Shown: one piece after another, positions 23,139 through 64,000 of the stretch
Layout: each line of letters starts with the position of its first letter
Numbering within the stretch: the first letter of the stretch is position 1
Source: an uncultured cyanobacterium
GTDB taxonomy: Bacteria; Cyanobacteriota; Cyanobacteriia; Pseudanabaenales; Pseudanabaenaceae
Length of the DNA stretch: 64,000 nt
Reading direction: 5' to 3'
NCBI GenBank assembly: GCA_963703315.1
Contig: OY969811.1
Span: forward strand, 320,001 to 384,000
The notes under the pieces: model-generated
Database searches by the model: none
What the model saw: the letters and a program-made list of their open reading frames with translations, nothing else
Told to the model about the DNA's origin: nothing
Translations under genes and position numbers: made by a program

Positions 23139-25445
23139 ATGACTCAAGAGCCAGAACCGAAACCAAAGCTATCTCTCGAAGAGCAGATCACCGATATTGT
23201 TTTGAAAACGATCAAGACTGGTGGCATTGCTGGTGGTGGGATTGGTGCATTTTGGCAGTTGTTTATGGCGAGTGATATTCCCAAGGCGATCGCCTCGATG
23301 GTAATTGGTGCTGGTATATCCTATGGCGCGGCTTTGCTACAACCAATTCATGAGGGTAATAAAAAGCGCTTTAAGGGTTTAGGTGAGTCGGCAGATCGGG
23401 GTATCGAAAAGCTTGGCGAAAACGTAGCGGCAAATTGGCAAGCACTTGGCTTTGATGCGAAGTATCTACAATGTCAGATGTGGGACTGTCATGAAGACTA
23501 TGCGGTGGGATTGCGGGAAGATGAGAACTTGCCTGTGAATAATCCTTTGCTGCGTGAGGTATTTGTACCTTTGGAGCTATCTTCAGATTCCATTGCATCG
23601 GGTTATGAATTTCGCGATCGCGATGAAAGGTGCCAGCAGATTCAGATTTGGGAATTACTGGAAAGGGTAAAGCAGGATAATCGGTTGCGCCAGATTGCGA
23701 TTAGGGCTTGGGGCGGTTATGGCAAATCAACTTTGTTAAAGCATCTGACTTACATTTACAGCACTGGTGAATATAACAAGGGTGATTTTCGTAAATATAA
23801 GGCTCCTAAGTTTGTGCCATTTTTGCTCTATCTAGCAGGATCTTGGAAAGAGATCGCCAAAGAGAATCCGCCAGATTTGCCCGAACTATTGACCACGTTT
23901 CACATTGGGCGATTATCCAAAATCAAGGAGTTAGAAACGGTTCCACCGAATTGGGCGCTAAATTTACTACGGCGCGGTGATGCTCTGGTGATGTTTGATG
24001 GATTTGATGAAGTGCCACCTGTGCAGAGAGCAAAGGTGAGTGAGTGGCTGAGTGCAGAAATGCAGAAATATCGTGAAGCAGTTTTCATTGTGACTTCGCG
24101 CCCGACTGCTTTTCGAGAAGATTATGTAGCACGAAAACCAACTGCGAGTTTTTGGATTCAGGATTTTAATCAGGAACAGCGTAAGCAATTTGTGGAGCAG
24201 TGGTATTTGTGCCAAGAGCGCTATGCGAGGGCTGGACGGAATACTCCTGATGTGGAGGCGAAGGCGAAGGAGAGAGCGAAGTCTCTATTAGAACAAATTC
24301 AGGCACGTCCAGAGTTGAATGATATTGCGGGGAATGTGTTGCTATTGAATATGATGGCGCGGTTTCATCGGGATAATAAGATGGGGGCGGAGTTACCACA
24401 GCGTAAGGTGGAGCTATATCAAGAGATTTGTGAGTTACAGTTGGGGCGGCGACCAAGTGCTAGGGGAATTGCTCTGTTGCTAACTTCTATTAATCAACGT
24501 CAAGAGGTGTTGCAAGTTGTAGCTTTGAAAATGATGAAACGGGCTGTGTTTGACAGTGATAAAGAAGGTTTCAAACAAATTCAAAGGGATAGTTTATTGC
24601 AACTTATTCAAATGTATTTAGCAATGATCAAATCCGATGTTGATTCGCGGGAATTTTTAGCGCAAATGGTTCAGGTGAGTGAACTCTTAGTTGAAAGAGA
24701 TGGAAATATTTATCAGTTTTCGCACTTGAGCTTTCAGGAGTTTTTAGCAGCTTCAGAAATTGTCAGATTACAACAAGAAACCTTGTTATATGAGCATTTA
24801 AGCTTGAGTGCATGGAAAGATATGATTTTGTTCTATGCCAGTTTGGTTAATCCGACAAGGTTGATCCAAGAGGCAATTAATCGTAATGAAACAGATTTAG
24901 CGTATCTTATCTATCAACAAATTGATAAGAATTTAAATTTGTCGGCGGATGAGAGAAAGACTTTGGATAGTTTAAAAGAATCGGTTAATACCTCACGCTA
25001 TCATCAATTAGAAGAATATCTCAAAGCAAAGGAATGGTATAAAGCAGATGAAGAAACCTATAAGTTGATGATTACGGCGGTGGGTAAGGATGTTGGACAG
25101 GGATTTAGTTTAGATAATTTACGCAATTTCCCCTGTGATGAGTTACTGGCTATAGATCGCTTGTGGGTAAAACATAGCAATGGACTTTATGGCTTTAGCG
25201 TCCAGAAGGATATTTATGTCAAATGTGGTGGTAAGCTAGATTTTAGTTTGCCAAGTTCAGAGATTTGGGAAGAATTTTGCGATCGCACGGCATGGAAAAG
25301 CGAGGGTAAATGGGTGGACTATCCCCAACAATTTTTTGATAATAATTTTATGTATGTAAAGGGACACCTCCCAATGGGGACACCTCCCAATTTGGAGGGT
25401 GGCGATGCATACTTCTTTTCTCGCATCAAGACTTGTGAAGTGTAA
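23139..25445 (+). CDS. NACHT NTPase with C-terminal GUN4 domain
   Basis: Walker A AWGGYGKST, Walker B MFDGFDE, VTSRP, FSHLSFQEF; GUN4 W..ADEET, FPC..L..IDRLW..S.G.YGFSVQ, GHLP. Confidence 0.9.
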   Translation: MTQEPEPKPKLSLEEQITDIVLKTIKTGGIAGGGIGAFWQLFMASDIPKAIASMVIGAGISYGAALLQPIHEGNKKRFKGLGESADRGIEKLGENVAANWQALGFDAKYLQCQMWDCHEDYAVGLREDENLPVNNPLLREVFVPLELSSDSIASGYEFRDRDERCQQIQIWELLERVKQDNRLRQIAIRAWGGYGKSTLLKHLTYIYSTGEYNKGDFRKYKAPKFVPFLLYLAGSWKEIAKENPPDLPELLTTFHIGRLSKIKELETVPPNWALNLLRRGDALVMFDGFDEVPPVQRAKVSEWLSAEMQKYREAVFIVTSRPTAFREDYVARKPTASFWIQDFNQEQRKQFVEQWYLCQERYARAGRNTPDVEAKAKERAKSLLEQIQARPELNDIAGNVLLLNMMARFHRDNKMGAELPQRKVELYQEICELQLGRRPSARGIALLLTSINQRQEVLQVVALKMMKRAVFDSDKEGFKQIQRDSLLQLIQMYLAMIKSDVDSREFLAQMVQVSELLVERDGNIYQFSHLSFQEFLAASEIVRLQQETLLYEHLSLSAWKDMILFYASLVNPTRLIQEAINRNETDLAYLIYQQIDKNLNLSADERKTLDSLKESVNTSRYHQLEEYLKAKEWYKADEETYKLMITAVGKDVGQGFSLDNLRNFPCDELLAIDRLWVKHSNGLYGFSVQKDIYVKCGGKLDFSLPSSEIWEEFCDRTAWKSEGKWVDYPQQFFDNNFMYVKGHLPMGTPPNLEGGDAYFFSRIKTCEV

Positions 25446-51835: not shown

Positions 51836-52996
51836 TTAGTTTTGGTATAAATAAAGGTCGGCAAGTCTTTGGGCTGCTTGAGCTTGCTGATTTGCCAAAC
51901 TTTTAGGAGCAAGAACGATCGCATTATCCATAAAGCGATTGACCCAGCGACTAAATTCACTTAGCGATCGCTCTGGTAGCGAAATACTGTAATCGATATA
52001 ATCAGGCTTCCCTCTTCGATCAATCAATTGAGAAATATGTCTTTTTTCTCCCTCTTCGATAAAGGCAATTACAGGTGCGAAAAAACGTATCTTAACTTGA
52101 ATATATTCTAGAGTTCCTGCAAGCTCTCTAACTTGGTCAGATGGTTCACCGAGAAACAAACCCCAACCTTTTTTAAACAGATTCATTGCCACAGTTAAAC
52201 TTGTTTTTTGGAGATCCGTTCCTCTAGGCTGATTAACGAATTGGATCTGGTCAGTGAAGCGATCGATCCGTTCGATTTCTAAATGACCATTATCGACGTA
52301 CTCATAGAGCAAATACCAAGCAATATCGTGATAAATCAATTGCAATGGGAAGACTTGTAAATATCCGATTTTATGGCTATAGGGATCGGTATAACGATAG
52401 ATGGTGATTGCTTGCCCGATCGCGATCGCTTCTTCAACTTGATCTAAACAATGATAAAGGTTGTAGCGATTTTTCTTGATATCTAGCATTTCATCAAGGT
52501 CAGTGTAGATAATCGCTCGATCTATTTGCGATCGCACGGGATAGAGATAGTCTGTGGATTCTAATATTTGTTTGCCGCGCAGTTTCTTTTCGAGTTCTTG
52601 GTAAATACGGATCGCTTGTGGCGATCGCTGATATTTTGCCATAGATGCTAGGGCGTTGAGCGCTACTTGCAAGTCTTTAAATGACATCACTCCTGTTCCT
52701 AAGAAGTAGCCCCAACGATAAATTCGCTTTTCTAAAAGACCATATTTACGGAGTGTAACTAAGTCTTTGCGAAGGGTGGGAATGGAATATTTAGTTAAGG
52801 AAATATTGTATTGTTGGGCAACTTCATAAACTTTTGCTTGAACGGCTTCTAGGGATTCATGGGCAGATTGGGAGTTATTGCCGATGCGATCTGGGCAGCC
52901 GATGCCAGGGTAATGAATGAAAGTGGCGATGAGGAGAAGGAGTCGCTCAAAGGCTTGGCGATCGCTGTAGGGATGTAAGTTACTAGTCTTCGGCAT
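51836..52996 (-). CDS. WYL-domain transcriptional regulator, divergent from the cas operon
   Basis: N-terminal wHTH (TLRKDL); PLQLIYHDIAWYLL; ERIDR. Confidence 0.9.
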   Translation of the reverse strand: MPKTSNLHPYSDRQAFERLLLLIATFIHYPGIGCPDRIGNNSQSAHESLEAVQAKVYEVAQQYNISLTKYSIPTLRKDLVTLRKYGLLEKRIYRWGYFLGTGVMSFKDLQVALNALASMAKYQRSPQAIRIYQELEKKLRGKQILESTDYLYPVRSQIDRAIIYTDLDEMLDIKKNRYNLYHCLDQVEEAIAIGQAITIYRYTDPYSHKIGYLQVFPLQLIYHDIAWYLLYEYVDNGHLEIERIDRFTDQIQFVNQPRGTDLQKTSLTVAMNLFKKGWGLFLGEPSDQVRELAGTLEYIQVKIRFFAPVIAFIEEGEKRHISQLIDRRGKPDYIDYSISLPERSLSEFSRWVNRFMDNAIVLAPKSLANQQAQAAQRLADLYLYQN

Positions 52997-53149: not shown

Positions 53150-54751
53150 ATGTGTTTGGGAGGTAAAGCGATCGCGGTCATGGATGTACTAACACAAGAA
53201 AAATCCCAAACGAGTGAATCTGAGAGTGGGAAATATACGGTGATTACTTTTGCTCCTGTGCAAGGCTTTATCGAGAAGTCCCGTAAGTTGCGCGATCTCT
53301 ATGGTGCATCGCAAATTCTCTCGTACTTAAGTTGGAAGATCGTTTGTGCGGCTAACAGTAAAAACTGTGAAGTGATTTCACCTGCGATCGCAATCGATAA
53401 TGCCTCTGAGATGGCTAATGTTGATATTGTGCAGGGTATGCCCAATCGAATTTTGATATTGGGTGATTTCTCGCATAACGATGCTCAGAAAGCTTTAACA
53501 GAAGGCTGGAAAGAAATTGTGACGGCTTGCCGTAGTTGGCTGAGAGATAATTTGCAAATTGATGATGAGGGCTGGTTTAACTCTTGGACAAGATGGCAAA
53601 TTCACGCTTGGGAAGTGTTTTGGGGTAGTGGTCAAAGTATTGAGTTTGCAATGCGCGATTTGGAAACTCGGAAGTTGCGGCGGGCTTGGACTGTTCCGAA
53701 TTGGAATGGTGAAAGTTCGAGTTTGTCGGGGCATGATGCGATCGCACATCCAAGTATGGATAATTTAGGAACGAATGAAGTAGAAATCAAAAAGTTTTAC
53801 AAGAGGCTTGCCGAAGTTCTCGATCCTTCTGGTGATGAGAACGATCGCGCTTATATCAATGAAAATGAGCGATTGAGTATTCCTGAATTAATCAAAAGAT
53901 TGGTTACTTATGAGGCGATCGCTAAAAAAATCCATCGCGATCTTTACGCGCCGACTTTTCGAGAAGTGCTTCGCAAAGATGACAAATCTGGTGCGACCTA
54001 TTGGACTGGTTGGTTTATGGGTGACGGCGATAAGGTTGGCGATCACCTCAAGAGGCTTACAGATAATGCTAGCGTCACTCAATTTAGCCAGTCTCTGAGA
54101 GCTTGGGGTAAGCAATTTCAAACAGATTTTGATAAAAAAGGTCGTGTAGTTTATGCGGGAGGAGATGATTTTCTCGGTGTGATGTATGGGGACAAACAGA
54201 CTCCTAAATTAGATAGCCGTGAAGTAATTGAATGGTTGCTGAATTTGCGTCATAGTTGGGAAAAAGGAAACCTTGGGATTACGCTCAGTGTGGGTTTTGT
54301 GTGGGCGGGGCATAGTGTACCGCAGCGTGATGTGTTGCAGCATTGCCGCGAGGCTGAGAAGTTAGCTAAGAATTTAGGGCGCGATCGCGTGACGATTCGG
54401 GTTCTGTTTAACAATGGGCAGTTTGTGCAGTGGACTACGCCTTGGAAATATTTGGAATGGTTAGCAGATTATCGCGATCGCAATGACAATACTGGCAAAG
54501 ATGCGAATTGGAGCCATGTATATACCGATCTGGCACAGCTCAAAGCTCGTCATGCGATTCCACCTGCTACTGCTGAAACAGCTAATGATGTGATCGCGCT
54601 TGAGTTGTTTGGGTTGTATTTCGGCAAAGATAAGCAGGAAACGCTCTCTCAACAACGTGGAAAAATTACAGGATCTGAAGATTCCAAATCAATGATTGAA
54701 TGGATTGACGGCATGATTAAAGTGGGGTGGCAGTTATGTTCAAATTCCTAA
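53150..54751 (+). CDS. cas10: Cas10/Cmr2, short HD-less form, type III-B variant (alternative start 53180)
   Basis: PVQGFIEKSRKLRDLYGASQILS, MGDGDKVG, VYAGGDD, TLSVG. Confidence 0.92.
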   Translation: MCLGGKAIAVMDVLTQEKSQTSESESGKYTVITFAPVQGFIEKSRKLRDLYGASQILSYLSWKIVCAANSKNCEVISPAIAIDNASEMANVDIVQGMPNRILILGDFSHNDAQKALTEGWKEIVTACRSWLRDNLQIDDEGWFNSWTRWQIHAWEVFWGSGQSIEFAMRDLETRKLRRAWTVPNWNGESSSLSGHDAIAHPSMDNLGTNEVEIKKFYKRLAEVLDPSGDENDRAYINENERLSIPELIKRLVTYEAIAKKIHRDLYAPTFREVLRKDDKSGATYWTGWFMGDGDKVGDHLKRLTDNASVTQFSQSLRAWGKQFQTDFDKKGRVVYAGGDDFLGVMYGDKQTPKLDSREVIEWLLNLRHSWEKGNLGITLSVGFVWAGHSVPQRDVLQHCREAEKLAKNLGRDRVTIRVLFNNGQFVQWTTPWKYLEWLADYRDRNDNTGKDANWSHVYTDLAQLKARHAIPPATAETANDVIALELFGLYFGKDKQETLSQQRGKITGSEDSKSMIEWIDGMIKVGWQLCSNS

Positions 54752-55803
54752 TTGTGATACGTCCTTTGGGATTGCTTTATGGCAGCGCTGGCGCATTTCT
54801 GTCTCCTGAAAACTTAGTTGGACGCTCTGGCGCAAAATTTCCACCTGATGCGGGAACGCTTTCGGGATTGATTTTGGCGACAAATCAAGAGCAGAAGTTT
54901 ACCGAGCATCAAGAGCTAAAAACTAATCTGGCTGTAGCTGGTGCTTTTTGGGCAGAGTCAGATCATCCTGAAAACTTTTTTGTGCCAATTCCTCGATCGC
55001 GCATTGTCGGCGAGAAGAATAAGGATTTTGATGAATGGGCGCTAATCAATCACAAATGGGAGCGTCAACATCCCGATCTCGATCCTGAATATCAATGGCA
55101 GAGTATCAACTCTTGGCACAAGCAAACCCCACAGCTAAAGCGTCCTGAAAAAGGCAAGTGGAATGATGTTGGTAAAACTCCTTGGGAATTTATGCCGATT
55201 TTGCATCCCTATCTCAAAGATGATGAGAAACACGTCCGCGATCGCGATGGATTGTTTTTAGAGAATGCTGTGCAGATGCGTGAAGATAGCTGTTTGGTGT
55301 ATCTCTCGACGCATAAATTGCCTGATGGTTGGTATCGCTTTGGTGGAGAAAATCACATTGTGGAAATCACTAGTCAAGCAATTACAGAGCATAGTTCGAT
55401 CTGCAAGTTACTGAAGCAGAAAATTGGGCGGAGTTTTGCGCTGATTACGCCTGCGGTATGGGGAAGCAATAATCTATCAACTCGCTATCCTAACGATGTG
55501 CGCTTTAGCAACAAGCGTCCTGAGATGCTGACCGATCGCCCTGAGCCTTGGCGTTATCGTGTGGGTAAGGGTGAGGCGCAAAACAAACGCGCCAGTAAGT
55601 TGAGCATTGGTCGCTATGCTGTGCCTGCGGGAACTGTCTATGTGGTCAAACATCCCCTCGATCTCACTTGGTGGGACTTCCCGCCTGAGTGGTTTGCGTC
55701 GGGTGAGGGGCTACCGTTGCGGCAGTTTGGTTGTGGGTTGTGCTTACCTGTGGAAATCAAAATCGAGCCTAAAGTTGAGCCTAAAGCTGACCAAAAAAAT
55801 TAA
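54736..55803 (+). CDS. cmr3: Cmr3 (Cas5 family)
   Basis: FPPDAGT, YRFGGE, LITPA, RYAVPAGTVY, terminal G-loop; follows cas10. Confidence 0.88.
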   Translation: MFKFLIVIRPLGLLYGSAGAFLSPENLVGRSGAKFPPDAGTLSGLILATNQEQKFTEHQELKTNLAVAGAFWAESDHPENFFVPIPRSRIVGEKNKDFDEWALINHKWERQHPDLDPEYQWQSINSWHKQTPQLKRPEKGKWNDVGKTPWEFMPILHPYLKDDEKHVRDRDGLFLENAVQMREDSCLVYLSTHKLPDGWYRFGGENHIVEITSQAITEHSSICKLLKQKIGRSFALITPAVWGSNNLSTRYPNDVRFSNKRPEMLTDRPEPWRYRVGKGEAQNKRASKLSIGRYAVPAGTVYVVKHPLDLTWWDFPPEWFASGEGLPLRQFGCGLCLPVEIKIEPKVEPKADQKN

Positions 55804-55821: not shown

Positions 55822-56652
55822 ATGTACAAAAAAGCCTATGGAATTATTGAAACCCTTGCGCCTTTGCATGTTGGAGCTGCCGCAGGTGAGGAGTCTGGTA
55901 ATCTCAATTTGATTTTTCGCGATCAATTTACGCAGACGGGGATTATCGCAGGGAGTTCGATTCGCGGACGCTTTCGGGCAGATATGCGCGAGACGGAAAA
56001 GGGTTTAGAGAATACATGGTACGGACATGAATCTGTGGAGGGTAGACCTGATGGTGGGACTACGGAAGCGATCGTCAAATTTGAATATGCTTCGCTGGTT
56101 TGGTTGCCTGTATTTTGTCCAGGACAGCCTGTCGTTTGGATTAGTTGCCCAAGATTGCTTAAGCGATACAAACTGATTACTGGTTGCGATGCGCCTATTC
56201 CCAAACCTTACACGGCGGCGAAAACTCTGCGGGGTCGTCAAATTAGCGATCGCGGTACTGCTAAACAAATCCTATTTTTCAACCTTGGATTTATGGAAAT
56301 CGAGCAGCAAATCGAAGCTGAAGCAATGCAGAAATGGATTCCTACTGGTGCAGATCTGGCGGTTGAGAGTTTAGTGGTGGTTGGCGATAACGATATTGCG
56401 ATGTTGCATGACATGGCTTTGTATCGCCAGAGTCGCATCAAGATGATGGACGACATGAAAAAGGTAGATGGAGGAGCATTTTTTAATGTGGAGGCTTTGC
56501 CAGAGGGAAGCGTTTTAATATTTCCGATCGCTTTGAAGCAATCGGGCTGGAAACCTTTTGTTAATGGTGATTCGCAGGATATGTATTTTGGTGGTTTGGA
56601 GTCGGTTGGCTTTGGTCGTTGTAATGTCACACTTGCAGGAGAGTATCAGTAA
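55822..56652 (+). CDS. cmr4: Cmr4 (Cas7 family RAMP)
   Basis: PLHVG, GSSIRGRFR, EALPEG, GGLESVGFG. Confidence 0.9.
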   Translation: MYKKAYGIIETLAPLHVGAAAGEESGNLNLIFRDQFTQTGIIAGSSIRGRFRADMRETEKGLENTWYGHESVEGRPDGGTTEAIVKFEYASLVWLPVFCPGQPVVWISCPRLLKRYKLITGCDAPIPKPYTAAKTLRGRQISDRGTAKQILFFNLGFMEIEQQIEAEAMQKWIPTGADLAVESLVVVGDNDIAMLHDMALYRQSRIKMMDDMKKVDGGAFFNVEALPEGSVLIFPIALKQSGWKPFVNGDSQDMYFGGLESVGFGRCNVTLAGEYQ

Positions 56653-57056
56653 TGGCTTGGAAAACCTATGATTTGGATCGCATTGCTCAGAAGTTAGTTT
56701 TAGATGCGAAAGAACGCGATAAAGATTCTTTGGGACAAGCGTTTAAGATGCGTGTAGCTGTAGCTTATGGCTTGGAGCGCTTCTGGGGTGAGCATTTGCG
56801 CTTGCAAGGTAAGAAAGCAGATGAGCATAAAGCTAAGTATTGGAAAGAGACTTGGGATCAGCTTGTAGCAGTAATGCTAAAAGCTGGGGTAAAAATCCCC
56901 AACGATCCTGTGCAATCAGACAATGAGAAAGCTGTAAGGTCTATGGCAGAGAAACTTTGGGAAATAGACATCCAAGATCAACGGGTGGCGATCGCTGTGC
57001 TAACGCAGCTTTGTGACTGTCTGGTTTGGTGGACTCAGCGCTATAAGAAAAAATAG
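56652..57056 (+). CDS. cmr5: Cmr5/Cas11 small subunit
   Basis: Small helical protein at the expected operon position, translationally coupled to cmr4. Confidence 0.7.
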   Translation: MAWKTYDLDRIAQKLVLDAKERDKDSLGQAFKMRVAVAYGLERFWGEHLRLQGKKADEHKAKYWKETWDQLVAVMLKAGVKIPNDPVQSDNEKAVRSMAEKLWEIDIQDQRVAIAVLTQLCDCLVWWTQRYKKK

Positions 57057-57074: not shown

Positions 57075-58784
57075 ATGTCAAATATTCCCGATGCTTATAG
57101 AAAAGTGCCGATGATGTTTCAGGCGCAAACGAATGGGCGCTGTCAATTGCAACGTCTCGATCCAGATCGTAAAAAGGATGGCGATTCGCAAGATGCTGAG
57201 ATCTGGTGTGAGGAGTGGACAAGTGAAACTTATCCTGTTGCGCCGATATTTGAGGAGCCAGTCAAAAAGCGAGAATATACGATTAGTTGGCGATTTGTGA
57301 CAAATTCGGGTCAGGATGATGGCGTGATTCGTCCTGTCATTGGTGCGTCTGGCTATCCCTTTTACCCCGGTTCGAGTATGAAGGGAGCTTTTCGTCAGGC
57401 TTGCAATCGGTTATTTAGCGATCGCCTTGGTAAATATTGCGGACAGGAGATTTCTAAGGGAGATTTCTCCCCAGGGATTTTGCGCTTTCATGGTGGTTAT
57501 CCTGTAGATAGCAGTTGGACTGATGGGTTAGTTGATCTCATTCATCCACAGCAAAAGTTACAGGTAATGAATAGTGAAAAAGAAGGAGCCAAAATCCAAA
57601 TTTCACTCTATCAACCCACAATTCAATTTGGGATTTCGGCTTCGGAGGAGCTTGATGAATCTGAGTGGGAGGAGATCTGGCAGATTTGGGAAGCGGCGCT
57701 GGGGCGTGGGATTGGTTGTCGGGTTTCCGCAGGTTATGGTCATCGCGATCAATTAAAGGGTGAGTTGTTGTATCCGCCGCATCTGTTGAAAGGGCAAGGA
57801 ATGGCATCTAAGCGCTTAGATGAATCTGGCGAGTTTCGTCCCAATATTTTTCGGGCGGCGATTCGTGGTCATGCGTTACGGATTTTTGGTGGTTTGACGG
57901 ATGCAGAGACAGCAAAGCGAGAAGTCGAGAGAATTTTTGGCGGTGTTTCAGGGCATGGTGTATGGGGCTTATTGATGATGAACTTTGTGACAACTAGCCT
58001 TGATGAGCAAATGTTTGGCAATGAACCTAGCTATCAAGTAGAAGGAGAACTAGGCTGGTTACTATCACAAGATCTTTCAGAAGAACGTAAAACTGCTTTA
58101 AAAAATCTAATCCTACATCTAAATCAATTTGCCATGATCTTTGGTGGTTTTGGTAAATCATGGCGCAGAGCCGATCATCGGTTATTTTATGAGAAATATT
58201 ATAGGCAGCATAATAAAAAATATCTGATCGGCTGTCATTGGGAATGGGAAGGTGAATTTCGCCGTGATGTTAAGGTTTATAACCTCAGTCATATTTCTGC
58301 TTTTTTAAATCAGTTGCAAAATGTAGCTAAAATCTGGCTAAAACTACAAGGCGTAAAGATTGGAACAAGCTATGCAGATGATTGGCGAGAATCATGGCAC
58401 GTTGACAATGTGCAGGTTTGGGGCAGGCGTGCAGATGATGATTTAGATTCTGAAGCTATTTATTGGTTACATGGAGATTATCAAGATGCAGATAAAAGGA
58501 TGCGTATTCCTGCATTATCTATTAAGCAATCATCTGTTACAGGAGGGCAAATTGGGCAACGACAAATACAGATCGGGCGACTGTGGCATCGAATGTATCC
58601 TTTAAAAAAGCAAGTTCGAGATCCTAATGATTCAACAAAATGGCTTGTAAAAGATACTAATCAATATATTGAACTATTGACAATTTTCCCTGATAAATCT
58701 GACAAATGCTTAGATTTTCTCGATTTCTTGGCTGATGATAGTCCGTTTGAACAGCTATGGGGAAAGCCTTGGGAAATAGAATAG
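57075..58784 (+). CDS. Double-RAMP protein (Cmr6-Cmr1 fusion)
   Basis: First RAMP: YPGSSMKGAFR...GIGCRVSAGYG; second RAMP: FRAAIR...FGG...GGFGKSWRR. Confidence 0.8.
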   Translation: MSNIPDAYRKVPMMFQAQTNGRCQLQRLDPDRKKDGDSQDAEIWCEEWTSETYPVAPIFEEPVKKREYTISWRFVTNSGQDDGVIRPVIGASGYPFYPGSSMKGAFRQACNRLFSDRLGKYCGQEISKGDFSPGILRFHGGYPVDSSWTDGLVDLIHPQQKLQVMNSEKEGAKIQISLYQPTIQFGISASEELDESEWEEIWQIWEAALGRGIGCRVSAGYGHRDQLKGELLYPPHLLKGQGMASKRLDESGEFRPNIFRAAIRGHALRIFGGLTDAETAKREVERIFGGVSGHGVWGLLMMNFVTTSLDEQMFGNEPSYQVEGELGWLLSQDLSEERKTALKNLILHLNQFAMIFGGFGKSWRRADHRLFYEKYYRQHNKKYLIGCHWEWEGEFRRDVKVYNLSHISAFLNQLQNVAKIWLKLQGVKIGTSYADDWRESWHVDNVQVWGRRADDDLDSEAIYWLHGDYQDADKRMRIPALSIKQSSVTGGQIGQRQIQIGRLWHRMYPLKKQVRDPNDSTKWLVKDTNQYIELLTIFPDKSDKCLDFLDFLADDSPFEQLWGKPWEIE

Positions 58785-58862: not shown

Positions 58863-59468
58863 ATGGCTTACAGTGATTTTACGGTTGAACAAATTATAGA
58901 TAAGTTCTCTCTCGATTTTGTTGAGCAGGACTTGTTTGCATCTTCAAAAAGTACGATTCAGGCTAGTAGTTGGTTATTGGAAACCCTTGCGAAGGGTAAG
59001 AAATTTGCGCTCACGACTAGCAGCGAAAAGGCAAAATCTGAGTTTATTATTGCGCCAATTTTGTTGGAAGTAGAGGCGCATTTTTCGACACAGTTGGCTA
59101 TTTATTCGGGCAAAAACCTTGATAGCGATCGCGAGGCGGGACTGGTAGGAGAATGTGATTTTATTCTTGGTAAGGGTACGACTTCAACTTTTATTAGCAC
59201 GCCAATTATGACGATCGTTGAGGCTAAGCGCGATAACTTGGAGAATGGGTTAGGGCAATGTGCTGCTCAAATGTATGGGGCAATTCGCTATAACCAAAAG
59301 CATGGTGAAACCTTGGATAAGGTCTATGGATGTGTGACGACGGGCAATTTATGGCAGTTTTTGAAGTTAGAAAATAAGTTGCTGACTCTTGATAGTAATG
59401 TTTTCTATCTCAATGAGCTTGATCGGATTTTGAGTTGTTTTAGTACGATCATCACTGAGTTTCTGTAG
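58863..59468 (+). CDS. PD-(D/E)xK-like (HsdR_N-like) cyanobacterial protein
   Basis: GECDF, IVEAK, GLGQC, YGCVTTG.LWQF. Confidence 0.7.
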   Translation: MAYSDFTVEQIIDKFSLDFVEQDLFASSKSTIQASSWLLETLAKGKKFALTTSSEKAKSEFIIAPILLEVEAHFSTQLAIYSGKNLDSDREAGLVGECDFILGKGTTSTFISTPIMTIVEAKRDNLENGLGQCAAQMYGAIRYNQKHGETLDKVYGCVTTGNLWQFLKLENKLLTLDSNVFYLNELDRILSCFSTIITEFL

Positions 59469-59499: not shown

Positions 59500-60894
59500 A
59501 TGTCTGTAGTTTGGATTGTGACGACGGGTAATAGTGATGTCAAGCTGACAGATGATACTGGCTCGACACATTTGCTAGATAAAAAAGGTGAGCAGTTATA
59601 TTACTGTGGATTTTCTGCATCAGACGATAGTGATGATAGTGATGTCACACTGTTTACTTTGCCTGCAAGGGTAATGGGAATTAGCTATGGTGATGCAATT
59701 GGAACACATTGGGATCGTTTGACTTTTCCTTTGTTGGATGGATTTTGTCAGGAATTTAAGACTGAGAAAAGGAATAAGCCCGATCGCATTATTGTTTTGC
59801 TGACCGATCAGGAGGCGATTTTTGATGATTACAGTCGAGGTGATGCTGCTTGTCCTTATTGGCAGGATACATATACGCTTCAGCCAATTTTGAAGCATTA
59901 TTTTTCGCAAGTGTTTGGTGAAAAATTTGCTAATGAAAAGATTGAATTTTCGGTTTTGAAGCCGCAACAGGGGGCGGATGGGTTAGATGATTGGGATGCG
60001 ACATTGACGCTAGTAAAGGCGGAGTTGGCGAGGTGGGAAGAAAATAAGTGGATTTCTAAGAGCGATCGCGTGATTGTTAGTCATCAGGCGGGGACTCCTG
60101 CAATTTCTTCGGCAGTACAGTTAACTTGTTTGATTCGCTTTGGTAAAAAGGTGGAATTTCTGGTTAGCAGTGAGTTAGATCCAGATAGGACTAAGTTTTT
60201 AAAGGGTTCGTCCTATTTTGAGACGTTGCAATTTAAGAAGTTAGAGGATTTGCTAGCAAGGGATGATTATGCTGGGGTTGCTAGTGTTGTGGACAGTCTG
60301 GGTTTAGAAGATTCTGTGCTGAAGGTGAAGTTGGATCATTTACTCGAACTGGCGAAGTTGTGGAATGCAGCTAAGTTTGATGAGTTTGCTAACAGGATGG
60401 AATTGGTGACCTCTAGTCGAGTTAGGGAATGGTGGTGGAAGGGCTATGAGATGGCTTATCTGGCTGTGGTGAGGATGAAAAATGGTGATCCAACTGAGGC
60501 GCTTTTTCATAGTGTGAGAGCGATCGAGGGGTTGATTTGTGAATGGGCGATTCATAAAGAAAGGCGATCGGATTTGTATGGAAAGAGTTTGTATGATTTG
60601 TTCAAATTAAGAAACCCTGAGTCTAATAGTCTGCCGATTAAGGTTGTTTGGTCAAAGTTAGCTTCTGTCAGAAATAAGCTATTCCATACTTTGCGAGGTA
60701 TTTCGGCTGAGGAGGTTTGGGATGCTTGGGATGAAAACTCAAAATCTGACTGGGAAAATAGAATGTTTACTTGTCTTAATTTTGTAACTAGGAATGATAG
60801 ATCTCAAGAGTTTAAATCTCTGAAAGATGCTAGTTTGATGTCACAGGTGCATAAGGATTTGGAGGAAGTGATTAAGGCGATCGCTTCTTATTAG
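59500..60894 (+). CDS. Putative CARF-HEPN type III effector (Csx1/Csm6-like)
   Basis: Rossmann-like start WIVTTGNSD, VSHQAGTPAISSA; C-terminal RAIE and RNKLFH (RxxxxH). Confidence 0.7.
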   Translation: MSVVWIVTTGNSDVKLTDDTGSTHLLDKKGEQLYYCGFSASDDSDDSDVTLFTLPARVMGISYGDAIGTHWDRLTFPLLDGFCQEFKTEKRNKPDRIIVLLTDQEAIFDDYSRGDAACPYWQDTYTLQPILKHYFSQVFGEKFANEKIEFSVLKPQQGADGLDDWDATLTLVKAELARWEENKWISKSDRVIVSHQAGTPAISSAVQLTCLIRFGKKVEFLVSSELDPDRTKFLKGSSYFETLQFKKLEDLLARDDYAGVASVVDSLGLEDSVLKVKLDHLLELAKLWNAAKFDEFANRMELVTSSRVREWWWKGYEMAYLAVVRMKNGDPTEALFHSVRAIEGLICEWAIHKERRSDLYGKSLYDLFKLRNPESNSLPIKVVWSKLASVRNKLFHTLRGISAEEVWDAWDENSKSDWENRMFTCLNFVTRNDRSQEFKSLKDASLMSQVHKDLEEVIKAIASY

Positions 60895-60930
60895 CTGATG
60901 AGTTATTGTCAGTTTTGGCTATCAAAATTA

Positions 60931-63900
60931 GTTTCCTACTCTATAGGGGACGCGATCAATTGGAAACAATGGTTGGTAAGTAGACTGTGTGATAGTAGAC
61001 AATCTCCTATACGCTAGGAGATGCGATCAATTGGAAACGCAAAGGTAAAGGTTGCTAATGTTGCGGGTGCTGATCTCCTACTCGCTAGGGGACGCGATCA
61101 ATTGGAAACCCAACTTTAAACACTTGGACATTTTCCAATGTAGCGATTCTCCTACTCGCTAGGGGACGCGATCAATTGGAAACCAGATGACATCATCTGA
61201 ACCAAATCTTCATCAAAGAACTTATCTCCTACTCGCTGGGGGACGCGATCGATTGGAAACATAAAAGCAAGGGCAGCAGCAATCAAAGCAGGCATATTTG
61301 TTCTCCTACTCGCTAGGGGACGCGATCAATTGGAAACCACTGTTTAGGCTGCCTAGCATCACATACACCTCGTTTTCCCTACTCGTTAGGGGACGCGATC
61401 AATTGGAAACGTAAATTCTTCCAACGTTTGACCGAACTTGTCGTCAATCCCCTACTCGCTAGGGGATGCGATCGATTGGAAACCTAATCTCACGATGCTC
61501 TACCGCTTCAAATAAGCAGTTTTCCCCTACTCGCTAGGGGACGCGATCAATTGGAAACCCCTGCGATTGATGGATAGTCAGCGCGAAAGCATATCGCATC
61601 CCCTACTCGCTAGGGGACGCGATCAATTGAAAACTCAATAATCAAAGTCTTTTAGTGATGAGTGAGATTGTTCCCCTACTTGCTAGGGGACGCGATCGAT
61701 TGGAAACGACATGTAATCATGTCCTGCTTTATACTTTTTATGATCTCCTACTCGCTAGGGGACGCGATCGATTGGAAAAACGGCTATACATTGCTCTGCA
61801 TGGTTCATGATAGGAATCTCCTACTCGCTAGGGGGCGCGATCGATTGGAAACTACCATAATGGCTTGGCTCCGTATTTGTGTGTCATTTCCCCTACTCGC
61901 TAGGGGATGCGATCAATTGGAAATGCTCCTCACTTCTGATGTTCCCAGACGTAAAACCAATCTCCTACTCGCTAGGGGACGCGATCAATTGGAAACAGCC
62001 ACGCTAGGGAATCTGGTTTTGTTGTGCCTTTTGGTCTCTCCTACTCGCTAGGGGTCGCGATCAATTGGAAACCCGCCTATTACTCGACGAATAACATTTG
62101 TCGCAACAAAAAAGTTCCCTACACGCTAGGGAACGCGATCAATTGGAAACACGTAGCCCTGTATGATGTTTGTGATTACTGGGTCATTAATCCCCTACTC
62201 GCTAGGGGATGCGATCGATTGGAAACTGACAACGCTTAATCGCTTGGTATGTCTGCTCAAAACTATTCTCCTACTTGTAAGGGGACGTGATCAATTGGAA
62301 ACTGAAACCAAGTGAGAGTGATGCTTTATGATGGTTTGTCTCCTACTCGCTAGGGGATGCGATCGATTGGAAACTGATGAGCTACCCGATCTTGGCTGTA
62401 AAAATCACCCTTCTCCTACTCGCTAGGAGACGAGATCGATTGGAAATGTCAGGTACTTGCCCGAGGAAGTCACCTTACCCTTGTCTCCTACTCGCGAGGG
62501 GACGCGATCGATTGGAAATGTCCAACAGAGAAAAGTAAAGTAAAGTTCGGATACATCTCCTACTCGTTAGGGGACGCGATCGATTGGAAATTGAACTTCA
62601 ACCATGTCGCACTCAACCCAAGCGCAAACCGATTTGTCTCCTACTCGCTAGGGGACGCGATCGATTGGAAACATCTCACCGTGCTTGCGACACCATTCCG
62701 AGAGTTGATCCCCTACTCGCTAGGGGACGCGATCGATTGGAAACAACTGAGCTTTTAGAAATACAATGTCGTTGATCGATATTCTCCTACTCGCTAGGGG
62801 ATGCGATCGATTGGAAACTGAGGATTATATCTTTCTTCAGTATCAGTTTCTTCAATCTCCTACTCGCTAGGGGATGCGATCGATTGGAAACCGATCAACC
62901 GCGATCGCCTCCTGAGTCCGACGGGCTTCTCCTACTCGTTAGGGGACGCGATCGATTGGAAACACTTTGCTGTATAGGGAATAGGTGAGAAAGCTGTAAA
63001 TCCCCTACTCGCTAGGGGACGCGATCAATTGGAAACGCATACTTGTCTAGGATCGGTGGGATGTATTTCCAAGTCTCCTACTCGCTAGGGGACGCGATCG
63101 ATTGGAAACGCATGACGGCTTTACGATTCGATAAAGTCTTTTCGTTCTCCTACTCGCTAGGGGACGCGATCGATTGGAAACGTTTTTATAATGTCTGAAT
63201 GTCTATGAGTCATTTTTTATCCCCTACTCGCTAGGGGACGAGATCGATTGGAAACCCCGCAAAGTTAATCCACTGAAATCACTCAATTTTGTTTCCTACT
63301 CGTTAGGGGACGCGATCGATTGGAAACCCTTTGGTTGTGAAAACTGCATTTCGTGACGTGGTCTCCCCTACTCGCTAGGGGACGCGATCGATTGGAAACC
63401 GATCTAGCCATGATTGTTTGATCACAAACTCGCAAATCTCCTACACGCTAGGGGACGCGATCGATTGGAAACACCCATTGGAGCAGCGCTTTAAATGTGT
63501 CGAGATCTTTCTCCTACTCGCTAGGGGACGCGATCGATTGGAAACTGTTCAGCCTTGTAAGCCCAAGCAGTAAGCTTGTTTCTCCTACTTGCTAGGGGAC
63601 GTGATCAATTGGAAACTACTTAGTTTCAAGCGCCTTGCCTGTGCGGGTGATTTTTCTCCTACTCGCTAGGGGACGCGATCGATTGGAAACGGTGGATTTG
63701 AGTAACGTAATAATAGAATAGTTTCCAACTTAGTCTCCTACTCGCTAGGGGACGCGATCGATTGGAAACTTGATCTCGATAATACGGTCGATCCCGTCAA
63801 TAGAAGTCTCCTACTCGTTAGGGGACGCGATCGATTGGAAACCCCTCGGCATCAAGGGTACTGAATCCGTAGACATCACTCTCCTACTCGCTAGGGGACG

Positions 63901-64000
63901 CGATCGATTGGAAACTTTGCTTGAGTTGTAGCGGTCAAATAATCGGTATTATCCCCTACTCGCTAGGGGACGCGATCGATTGGAAACCCGTCTCTCCCAG
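60931..64000 (+). CRISPR. CRISPR array, 42 repeats counted, continues beyond the window; consensus (N)TCTCCTACTCGCTAGGGGACGCGATCGATTGGAAAC
   Basis: Regular 36-37-nt repeats with about 34-44-nt spacers that appear unique; 3' end ATTGGAAAC. Confidence 0.98.

What the first reader, a model, noticed from the sequence alone, without database searches (positions are those of the whole stretch)
60931..63987. Highly heterogeneous CRISPR repeats whose variants mostly preserve or perfect the hairpin
Seen (manual count): only 7 of 42 repeats match the 36-nt consensus. Variants recur at non-adjacent positions: TCCCC for TCTCC in 11, GATGC in 7, CGTTAG in 5. Stem variants usually keep pairing: TCCCCTA/TAGGGGA, TCTCCTA/TAGGAGA (repeats 2 and 21), TTCCCTA/TAGGGAA (repeat 17). 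The base 5' of the 36-mer is nearly free (A16 T14 G9 C3). Known: Cas1-Cas2 normally copies the leader-side repeat exactly. Inference: error-prone or template-switching repeat copying, intra-array conversion, or structure-only recognition by a non-Cas6 nuclease.
Basis: partly seen in the sequence, partly recalled or inferred. Interest (0 to 1): 0.7.

Follow-up and report, generated by a model that had tools for sequence, protein, structure and literature searches.

The report
Decaying CRISPR array without adaptation genes
This is a real CRISPR array in a Pseudanabaena cyanobacterium whose repeats have drifted apart by point mutation, most likely because the genome has lost the genes that add new spacers and so renew the repeats; this is an extreme case of a known kind of decay, not a new copying mechanism.

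Summary
The array has 56 repeats of 36 nt, 42 of them in the window. Only 7 of 42 (8 of 56) equal the consensus, and there are 33 distinct variants. That is 49 mismatches per 1000 nt, about five times the published type III-B average for internal repeats.

The variants are real. Short-read contigs from one run match them exactly, and a second study's contig carries three of the same odd repeats.

The array lies 37 nt after csx1 of an apparently intact type III-B locus (HD-less Cas10 with GGDD, Cmr3-6, PD-DExK, Csx1). I found no Cas1, Cas2 or Cas6 in the 4.57 Mb genome.

The same repeat occurs in 14 of 36 congeners searched.
- Arrays next to csx18-cas1-cas2 are uniform (238 of 243; 6 of 6).
- All four Cas1-less genomes have scrambled arrays.

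So copying is faithful, and the heterogeneity is post-acquisition decay. It is transition-dominated (310 against 89), with top-strand C>T hot spots and a few block duplications.

The stem core, the presumed cleavage site and most of the 3' handle stay fixed. Covariation is weak, but pair-breaking changes are under-represented.

The repeat and adaptation module are homologous to the RNase E-processed CRISPR3 (III-Bv) of Synechocystis, so non-Cas6 processing is plausible but untested.

The parts
51836..52996 (-). CARF-WYL regulator gene, divergent from the cmr operon
   Evidence: PADLOC WYL/Csx1 'CARF+WYL' 1.1e-38; Pfam WYL and WCX, both weak
53150..54751 (+). Short Cas10/Cmr2 (533 aa): GGDD motif present at residue 337, no HD motif in the first 120 residues
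   Evidence: PADLOC Cas10b PDLC02051 2e-207; Pfam Cas10 palm2 and Cmr2_N; motif check
54727..55803 (+). Cmr3
   Evidence: PADLOC Cmr3 9.6e-12; Pfam Cas_Cmr3 3.2e-6
55822..56652 (+). Cmr4
   Evidence: PADLOC Cmr4 5.9e-23; 32% identical to pSYSA Cmr4, E 1e-30
56652..57056 (+). Cmr5
   Evidence: PADLOC Cmr5 PDLC01476 1.1e-64
57075..58784 (+). Large Cmr6-family RAMP (569 aa)
   Evidence: PADLOC Cmr6 PDLC01212 2.6e-205; 22% identical over 367 aa to the pSYSA CRISPR3 649-aa RAMP, E 3e-11
58863..59468 (+). CRISPR-associated PD-DExK nuclease-like protein
   Evidence: PADLOC PD_DExK 5.6e-47
59500..60894 (+). Csx1 (CARF-HEPN), with an R-x4-H motif (RNKLFH) at residue 391
   Evidence: PADLOC CARF_HEPN 5.6e-131 and Csx1 2.2e-92; motif check
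60895..60931 (+). 37-nt junction between the csx1 stop and repeat 1. The junction is 41-43 nt and conserved in the six relatives listed. There is no long leader.
   Evidence: No sigma-70-like site was found on the + strand by the simple scan.
60932..64000 (+). CRISPR array: 42 repeats in the window (the last at 63952-63987), and 14 more beyond it up to window-equivalent 65010. Repeats are 36 nt and spacers 35-45 nt. A truncated repeat remnant follows the last repeat.

Best explanation
The array belongs to a type III-B (Cmr) effector-plus-Csx1 locus with no Cas6 gene. In this genome the locus has also lost its adaptation module (csx18-cas1-cas2) and its long leader. No new spacers are added, so the leader-side repeat is no longer copied and nothing renews the repeats. 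Each repeat has therefore accumulated its own point mutations. These are mostly transitions, chiefly C>T on the crRNA-sense strand, at about ten tolerated positions. A few repeat-spacer blocks have also been duplicated. Selection for working crRNAs keeps three parts fixed: the core of the 5' hairpin (CCTA/TAGG), positions G23-A24-T25, and most of the 3' handle.

Shown: the heterogeneity is real and inherited. Cas1, Cas2 and Cas6 were not detected. Relatives with an adjacent cas1-cas2 have uniform arrays. The substitutions are site-specific and transition-biased.

Inferred: selection as the cause of the cold sites; that the array is still expressed and used; that a host RNase (RNase E, as in Synechocystis CRISPR3) reads the hairpin and cuts near G23/A24; and that cytosine deamination causes the hot spots, at positions 22 and 27 possibly of methylated CGATCG.
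For: 1. No Cas1 (PF01867), Cas2 (PF09827) or Cas6 (PF01881, PF10040, TIGR01877) in the 4.565 Mb genome, which is one contig and 99.67% complete. It holds one full array plus a 2-repeat relic.

2. The same repeat is in 14 of 36 congeners searched and in 0 of 24 other-family genomes.

3. Arrays with an adjacent cas1-cas2 are uniform: G002 238 of 243, with its 5 non-consensus repeats among the last 24 of the 243, towards the trailer end; G014 6 of 6; pSYSA CRISPR3 38 of 39. Leptolyngbya boryana has two repeat types, counted 42 and 13 times.

4. All four Cas1-less genomes have scrambled arrays. The share equal to each array's commonest variant is G000 8 of 56, G028 11 of 43, G030 2 of 10, G006 3 of 9.

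5. G026 and Tumidithrix show uniform blocks towards the csx1 end and heterogeneous older repeats.

6. In G000, adjacent repeats are no more alike than random pairs (157 against 161.4, P=0.27). In G023 and Tumidithrix they are (P<0.0002).

7. In 332 repeats from 8 heterogeneous arrays there are 310 transition runs against 89 transversion runs. C>T accounts for 143 and G>A for 72, of which 41 are at position 27. The cold sites have these run counts: G23 0, A24 0, T30 0, T25 1, G16 1, T6 1, C4 2, C5 3.

8. Pair-breaking changes are depleted: pooled 35 observed against 80.3 expected, or 54.8 with positions 3 and 27 fixed; 0 of 2000 simulations were as low.

9. Spacers shared between genomes are flanked by partly shared repeat variants (C3, T12, T20), with further differences on top.

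10. The effector looks intact: GGDD in Cas10, R-x4-H in Csx1, and full-length HMM matches.

11. Mitrofanov et al. 2026 (PMC12839519; abstract and first part of Results read) report that III-B arrays have the highest repeat mutation load: 18.74 per 1000 nt overall and 9.51 for internal repeats.
Against: 1. G005 and G032 do have Cas1 genes, on other contigs, yet their arrays are as scrambled (4 of 28 and 5 of 33 equal the commonest variant). I did not test whether those Cas1 genes serve this repeat.

2. The csx1-proximal 23 repeats carry more mismatches than the remaining 33 (2.39 against 1.33 per repeat). This is the opposite of a simple 'older is further from the leader' gradient.

3. At the shared or duplicated spacers, the flanking repeats differ more than the spacers do. 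By my own eye-count this is about 20 of 288 nt against 5 of 188 nt. That hints at a process faster than plain mutation.

4. In G023, position 3 flips between C and T many times in otherwise perfect repeats.

5. Cold sites could be mutational cold spots rather than selected sites. G>A at stem G positions (14 runs over 4 sites) is no rarer than at non-stem G positions other than G27 (17 runs over 5 sites).

6. The held assembly is one contig, so plasmids that could carry cas1, cas2 or cas6 may be missing.

7. Kinship makes the cross-genome association weak statistically.
Confidence: 0.68

Rival explanations
1. Intra-array recombination, gene conversion and block duplication, possibly together with exchange between strains, is the main source of the variants that recur at non-adjacent positions. 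Point mutation only supplies the raw variants.
For: There are two spacer duplications inside the G000 array: spacers 43 and 46 are identical 36 of 36, and spacers 18 and 53 match 39 of 40. Repeats 43/44 and 46/47 carry identical variant pairs. Repeats 17 and 48 share a four-site haplotype (T2, C3, A9, A27). All four allele combinations occur for most pairs of hot sites. The X2 strain shares repeats 18-20 and then continues with a different spacer. Spacers shared between species occur singly, not in colinear blocks.
Against: Conversion should spread transversions and rare variants as readily as transitions. Instead the recurrent variants are dominated by C>T at a few sites, and the same hot sites recur in 8 arrays. 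Frequent conversion would tend to homogenise the array. Linked multi-site haplotypes are few.
Confidence: 0.17
2. Repeats are made heterogeneous when spacers are acquired, by error-prone gap filling, by template switching in the hairpin that perfects the quasi-palindrome, or by imprecise integration at the 5' end of the repeat.
For: The most variable position (3) turns a T.G mismatch into a perfect C-G pair, and G17A does the same from the other arm. In G023, C3 and T3 alternate in otherwise perfect repeats.
Against: G002 has 243 repeats with T3 and none changed to C3; 238 of the 243 are identical, and cas1-cas2 is adjacent. G026 has a csx1-proximal block of 21 repeats, 20 of them identical. 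pSYSA has 38 of 39. G000 has no Cas1 or Cas2. Hot sites also lie in the loop and linker, where nothing could template them.
Confidence: 0.06
3. The variants are sequencing or assembly errors.
For: None was found. The array is repetitive, and complete single-contig genomes often come from long reads.
Against: All 22 laid contigs of X1 are 99% or more alike, and the 8 pieces shown have 0 other letters. X2, from another study, shares repeats 18-20. The same variant alleles recur in 7 other genomes.
Confidence: 0.01

Closest known systems
Synechocystis sp. PCC 6803 pSYSA CRISPR3, subtype III-Bv, matured by RNase E and RNase J (Scholz 2013, PMC3575380, passages and Table 1 read; Microlife 2025, PMC12464536, passages read; Behler 2018 known only through those papers' citations)
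   Same: Both have a 36-nt repeat with a 5' hairpin. The last 13 nt are identical at 12 of 13 positions and the last 10 nt are fully identical. Neither has a cas6. Both have almost no leader: the pSYSA transcription start is 1 nt before repeat 1, and here there are 37 nt after csx1. The congener G002 has an 86-aa ORF where L. boryana and pSYSA have csx18, followed by cas1 and cas2; its Cas1 is 59% identical to the pSYSA CRISPR3 Cas1. Cmr4 is 32% identical.
   Different: The effector is diverged. Cas10 here is 533 aa without HD, against 979 aa in pSYSA, and shares only local similarity (E 3e-7). Cmr6 is 22% identical. The linker before the presumed cut is GC-rich (CGCG) here rather than AU-rich. 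The pSYSA repeats are uniform (38 of 39) and cas1-cas2 sits next to the array. G000 has no adaptation genes, and only 8 of its 56 repeats equal the consensus.
Mutated repeats in type III-B arrays (Mitrofanov et al. 2026, PMC12839519; abstract and first part of Results read)
   Same: III-B has the highest repeat mutation load of the ten subtypes tabulated. Both end repeats are more mutated than internal ones, as here (repeats 1 and 2 have 4 and 5 mismatches).
   Different: The load here is 49 per 1000 nt across the whole array, against the tabulated 18.74 overall and 9.51 for internal repeats. I did not see whether that survey related the load to the absence of cas1. Its supplements were not read.
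Leptolyngbya boryana pLBX type III-B locus (NZ_AP014640.1)
   Same: The gene order is the same: WYL, Cas10 (46.7% identical), Cmr3-6, a Csx1-like gene, then an array. No cas6 is annotated within 12 kb. The repeat has a 5' hairpin and ends in ATGGAAAC.
   Different: It has csx18-cas1-cas2, two arrays with homologous leaders of about 280 nt, and uniform repeats.

Membership tests
CRISPR array | Regularly spaced direct repeats separated by unique spacers of similar length | tested here: met
   56 repeats of 36 nt; spacers of 35-45 nt; all spacers unique apart from two duplicated pairs
Type III-B (Cmr) CRISPR-Cas | Cas10/Cmr2 together with Cmr3, Cmr4, Cmr5 and Cmr6 next to the array | tested here: met
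   PADLOC hits: Cas10b 2e-207, Cmr3 9.6e-12, Cmr4 5.9e-23, Cmr5 1.1e-64, Cmr6 2.6e-205. No separate Cmr1 was seen.
Subtype III-Bv (Synechocystis CRISPR3-like) | No cas6 gene serving the array | tested here: met
   PF01881, PF10040 and TIGR01877 find nothing in G000. PF01881 and PF10040 find nothing in the complete genome G002. A very divergent or plasmid-borne Cas6 is not excluded.
Subtype III-Bv (Synechocystis CRISPR3-like) | Homologous repeat with a 5' hairpin and a long 3' handle | tested here: met
   12 of 13 terminal nucleotides identical; both repeats fold into a 5' hairpin
Subtype III-Bv (Synechocystis CRISPR3-like) | Orthologous effector proteins | tested here: inconclusive
   Cmr4 is 32% identical (E 1e-30). 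Cmr6 is 22% identical (E 3e-11). Cas10 shows local matches only (E 3e-7) and is 533 aa against 979 aa. pSYSA was not among the tblastn hits in the plasmid collection.
Subtype III-Bv (Synechocystis CRISPR3-like) | crRNA 5' ends made by RNase E, giving 13/14-nt handles | not testable with these tools
   No RNA run is listed for this stretch. The only indirect hint is that G23, A24 and T25 are the coldest positions of the repeat (0, 0 and 1 runs in 332 repeats).
Subtype III-Bv (Synechocystis CRISPR3-like) | csx18-cas1-cas2 adaptation module beside the array | tested here: not met
   Absent from G000. In congener G002 an 86-aa ORF, cas1 and cas2 lie beside the array in the order csx18-cas1-cas2 of L. 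boryana and pSYSA; the Cas1 is 59% identical to that of pSYSA.
Orphan (cas-less) degenerate array | No cas genes next to the array | tested here: not met
   A full effector operon ends 37 nt before repeat 1. Only the adaptation and Cas6 functions are missing.

The most novel reading that the evidence does not exclude
In this Pseudanabaena lineage, RNase E-type maturation reads only a short hairpin and a few bases of the repeat. That would let an interference-only type III-B system keep using a 'frozen' spacer memory long after cas1-cas2 was lost. The scrambled arrays of at least four Cas1-less species would then amount to a natural mutational scan of what such a repeat needs: the CCUA/UAGG core, G23-A24-U25, and most of the UUGGAAAC tag. 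The hot spots at positions 22 and 27 would reflect deamination, and possibly repair, at methylated CGATCG sites related to HIP1.
Probability: 0.3. Interest if true: 0.55.

Novelty: new member of a known kind. Interest (0 to 1): 0.33.

Why it matters
The case shows, with matched relatives, that repeat uniformity in this family depends on continuing acquisition. Once cas1-cas2 is gone, repeats drift at a handful of tolerated positions while the effector genes stay intact. This gives a ready-made map of which repeat positions a Cas6-less, probably RNase E-dependent type III-B system can and cannot vary. It is also a warning for array finders and orientation predictors that expect near-identical repeats. 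It does not point to a new copying or conversion mechanism.

Tried and rejected
- **RNA evidence.** No RNA holder is listed for the stretch, so expression and crRNA ends could not be examined.
- **Phage targets.** blastn of the in-window array against 50,697 phage records gave no match.
- **Rfam.** No family matched at E up to 0.1.
- **Promoter and terminator scan of 60600-61100.** No site was found on the + strand and no terminator. This is uninformative for cyanobacterial promoters.
- **Methylation idea.** The genome has three full C5-methyltransferase matches plus one 22-position fragment and 8231 HIP1 sites. However, the C>T neighbour of HIP1 (332 copies) is no commoner than the C>A neighbour (333 copies). 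CGATCA/TGATCG is only modestly the commonest 6-mer neighbour of CGATCG (ratio 2.04, against 0.35-1.68 for the others). The result is inconclusive.
- **Hairpin energy alone.** The consensus folds at -7.2 kcal/mol, but 67 of 200 shuffles fold as well. The hairpin is not special by energy.
- **tblastn of Cmr6 and Cas10 against plasmids.** pSYSA was not listed. Direct pairwise comparison was needed.
- **Earlier-findings look-up.** It returned nothing.
- **Other candidate arrays.** The other candidates from my k-mer scan are repeats inside protein-coding sequence.
- **Literature.** A search for Pseudanabaena + CRISPR + repeat listed 12 of 51 papers, none on this topic by title or abstract.
Full report
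**What is there**

Window 60932-63987 holds 42 direct repeats of 36 nt separated by spacers of 35-45 nt. The window is G000:C1:320001-384000 of a one-contig genome of 4,565,174 bases. The array continues to window-equivalent 65010, giving 56 repeats, and a truncated repeat remnant follows.

- 7 of 42 repeats (8 of 56) equal the consensus.
- TCCCC occurs in 11 of 42, GATGC in 7, and CGTTAG in 5.
- The base before the repeat is A16 T14 G9 C3.

There are 33 distinct repeat sequences among the 56. The total is 99 mismatches in 2016 nt, or 49 per 1000 nt.

**Are the variants real?**

Yes.
- All 22 contigs laid from public run X1 are 99% or more alike to the stretch. The 8 pieces shown have no other letters over repeats 1-3, 4-8, 15-17, 20-23 and further pieces.
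- One X1 loose end looks like a short-read library adaptor. That identification is from my recall.
- A contig from a different study (X2) spans 62154-62375. It covers repeats 18-20, including repeat 19 with its five mismatches, and has two other letters. It then continues into a different spacer.
- X1 may be the source sample, so only X2 and the other genomes below are independent.

**Context**

Upstream lies an apparently intact type III-B locus:
- a divergent CARF-WYL gene;
- a short Cas10 (533 aa; GGDD present, no HD motif in the first 120 residues);
- Cmr3, Cmr4 and Cmr5;
- a 569-aa Cmr6-family protein;
- a PD-DExK protein;
- Csx1 (CARF-HEPN, with an R-x4-H motif).

Repeat 1 starts 37 nt after the csx1 stop codon.

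Whole-genome six-frame searches found no Cas1, Cas2 or Cas6 (PF01867, PF09827, PF01881, PF10040, TIGR01877). The controls for each of these searches did find the family in some of the 14 known genomes. My k-mer scan found no second full array. There is only a two-repeat relic and one solitary repeat-like sequence elsewhere in the genome.

Caveat: only one contig is held, so plasmids may be missing.

**Relatives**

The repeat, allowing up to 3 mismatches in 33 nt, occurs in 14 of 36 same-genus genomes searched and in 0 of 24 genomes of other families. Record titles name the genus as Pseudanabaena, and a near relative is Tumidithrix helvetica PCC 7403.

Uniformity tracks the adaptation module:

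| Genome | Repeats equal to the array's commonest variant | Cas1 |
|---|---|---|
| G002 (complete genome) | 238 of 243 | adjacent (86-aa ORF, cas1, cas2, about 200-nt leader) |
| G014 | 6 of 6 | on the same contig |
| G008 | 35 of 40 and 22 of 28 | elsewhere in the genome |
| G026 | 20 of 26 | elsewhere in the genome |
| G000 | 8 of 56 | none in the genome |
| G028 | 11 of 43 | none in the genome |
| G030 | 2 of 10 | none in the genome |
| G006 | 3 of 9 | none in the genome |
| G005 | 4 of 28 | elsewhere in the genome |
| G032 | 5 of 33 | elsewhere in the genome |

- The 86-aa ORF of G002 sits where csx18 lies in L. boryana and pSYSA; I did not test what it is.
- In G002 the five non-consensus repeats are among the last 24 of the 243, towards the trailer end.
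- In G026 the first 21 repeats, nearest csx1, include the 20 identical ones. The last five are heterogeneous.
- Tumidithrix has 17 perfect repeats in a row after two degenerate ones, then a heterogeneous tail.
- G005 and G032 are exceptions that I did not resolve: they have Cas1 genes elsewhere, yet their arrays are scrambled.
- G023 is intermediate, with blocks plus C3/T3 alternation.

The arrangement 'csx1 stop, about 41-43 nt, repeat 1' is conserved in Tumidithrix, G005, G030, G023, G032 and G008.

These genomes are related to one another and few in number, so the association is suggestive rather than a statistical test.

**Pattern of change**

- In G000, adjacent repeats are no more alike than shuffled ones (157 against 161.4; P=0.27). 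So no copy-inheritance signal remains. G023 and Tumidithrix do keep that signal (P<0.0002).
- I pooled 332 repeats from the 8 heterogeneous arrays. I chose these arrays because they are heterogeneous; G002, G008, G014 and G026 were left out. Repeats with more than 6 substitutions were dropped.
- In the pool, runs of minor alleles number 310 transitions and 89 transversions. C>T accounts for 143 and G>A for 72, of which 41 are at position 27.
- Run counts at the hot positions are: position 3, 60; position 27, 44; position 20, 40; position 22, 29; position 12, 27; position 10, 22; position 2, 21; position 36, 18.
- Run counts at the cold positions are: G23, 0; A24, 0; T30, 0; T25, 1; G16, 1; T6, 1; C4, 2; C5, 3.

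**The hairpin**

The consensus folds as a 7-bp stem with a 5-nt loop at the 5' end, at -7.2 kcal/mol. The TCCCC variant folds at -10.2 kcal/mol.
- Stem cells pair in 98.7% of the G000 variants, against 98.0 +/- 0.3% after shuffling; 39 of 500 shuffles reach the observed value, and there is one two-sided change.
- In 134 pooled distinct variants they pair in 96.3%, against 95.8 +/- 0.2%. For the percentage paired, 14 of 500 shuffles reach the observed value, and for the covariation score 4 of 500. Three cells have two-sided changes. The tool warns that related sequences inflate such figures.
- Re-dealing each variant's substitutions over same-letter positions predicts many more broken pairs than are seen. 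For G000 the figures are 14.9 expected against 3 observed, P=0.0002, or 7.1 against 3, P=0.039, with positions 3 and 27 fixed. For the pool they are 80.3, or 54.8 with those positions fixed, against 35 observed; 0 of 2000 simulations were as low.

The hairpin is therefore spared more than chance would give, mainly through wobble-compatible C/U changes at the two outer pairs. Compensatory evolution is barely detectable. G>A at stem G positions is no rarer than at other G positions apart from position 27.

**Recombination**

- Two spacers are duplicated inside the G000 array (36 of 36 and 39 of 40 identical). One duplicate carries the same flanking repeat variants.
- Single spacers are shared with other species: G000 with G028, 38 of 38; G000 with G032, 32 of 36, all four differences being transitions; G005 with G032, 37 of 38.
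- The repeats flanking these shared spacers share some variants (C3, T12, T20) but differ at others.
- By my own eye-count the flanking repeats differ more (about 20 of 288 nt) than the spacers do (5 of 188 nt). This is unexplained and leaves room for conversion.

**Comparison with known systems**

- Scholz et al. 2013 (PMC3575380; Table 1 and passages read) give the Synechocystis CRISPR3 repeat. They report a transcription start 1 nt before repeat 1, no Cas6 dependence and a 13-nt tag.
- The 2025 Microlife paper (PMC12464536; passages read) describes RNase E recognising the 5' stem-loop and cutting 13/14 nt from the 3' end, with RNase J assisting.
- I extracted the pSYSA repeats from the record. 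Of 39 repeats, 38 are identical. Their last 13 nt match the consensus here at 12 of 13 positions.
- G002's Cas1 is 59% identical to the CRISPR3 Cas1.
- The effectors are distant: Cmr4 is 32% identical, Cmr6 22%, and Cas10 shows local matches only.
- A closer effector relative is on Leptolyngbya boryana pLBX, with Cas10 46.7% identical. It has the same gene order plus csx18-cas1-cas2, and its two arrays have uniform repeats.

By analogy, G23/A24 would be the RNase E cut site here. That these are the coldest positions of the repeat fits, but it is an inference.

Mitrofanov et al. 2026 (PMC12839519; abstract and first part of Results read) show that III-B arrays carry the most repeat mutations of any tabulated subtype. 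G000 is roughly five-fold above their average for internal repeats.

**Verdict**

This is an extreme but ordinary-in-kind case. The array belongs to a III-Bv-like system that has lost its adaptation genes, and its repeats are decaying under partial purifying selection. Faithful copying in relatives argues against error-prone copying. Processing by a nuclease other than Cas6 is plausible but untested. Conversion and duplication contribute, to an unknown but probably minor degree.

Noticed in passing
G000:C1:1050399-1050509 (- strand), outside the window: A relic mini-array of the same family: two degenerate repeats (12 and 7 mismatches to the consensus) 75 nt apart start to start.
   Followed up: partly
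G000:C1:3917503-3917538 (- strand), outside the window: A solitary repeat-like sequence with 8 mismatches to the consensus.
   Followed up: partly
window 61110-61147: A 266-nt contig of run X2 matches this spacer over 38 nt with 2 other letters and has non-repeat sequence on both sides. It is possibly a protospacer in a mobile element from that sample.
   Followed up: no
window 62227-62266, and window-equivalent 64790-64829, 64065-64100 and 64284-64319: Two spacer duplications inside the array: spacers 18 and 53 match 39 of 40, and spacers 43 and 46 match 36 of 36. The second pair has identical flanking repeat variants.
   Followed up: partly
window 60932-62600 compared with the rest of the array: The 23 repeats nearest csx1 average 2.39 mismatches, against 1.33 for the other 33. 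A27 is concentrated there too, in 12 of the first 19 repeats. This is the opposite of the usual gradient in which the trailer end is the most degenerate.
   Followed up: no
L023/L041 (G026, P. biceps PCC 7429 array): The base 5' of the repeat is G in 24 of 26 units, whereas it is nearly free in the other arrays, including the active-looking G002. This may reflect a different preference at the spacer end.
   Followed up: no
L022 (G002), between repeats 3 and 4: A non-repeat insertion sits inside this CRISPR array, leaving a 352-nt start-to-start gap.
   Followed up: no
L025 (G023), between repeats 3 and 4: A 933-nt non-repeat insertion sits inside this CRISPR array.
   Followed up: no
whole genome G000: The octamer GCGATCGC (HIP1) occurs 8231 times in 4.57 Mb at 42% G+C. 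The repeat contains GCGATCGA, and the last repeat (A28C) makes a perfect HIP1. Three full C5-cytosine methyltransferase matches are present, plus one 22-position fragment.
   Followed up: partly
window-equivalent 65110-65860, just after the array: Two small ORFs (about 140 and 112 aa) resemble, from my recall only, the cyanobacterial XisH/XisI pair. They were not tested with any library.
   Followed up: no
window 61662-62051: A 129-aa ORF listed on the + strand lies wholly inside the array and is almost certainly spurious.
   Followed up: no
L050:19159-19378 and 24451-24670 (L. boryana pLBX): The two arrays flanking csx18-cas1-cas2 have homologous leaders (74-76% identical) but different repeat sequences.
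   Followed up: no
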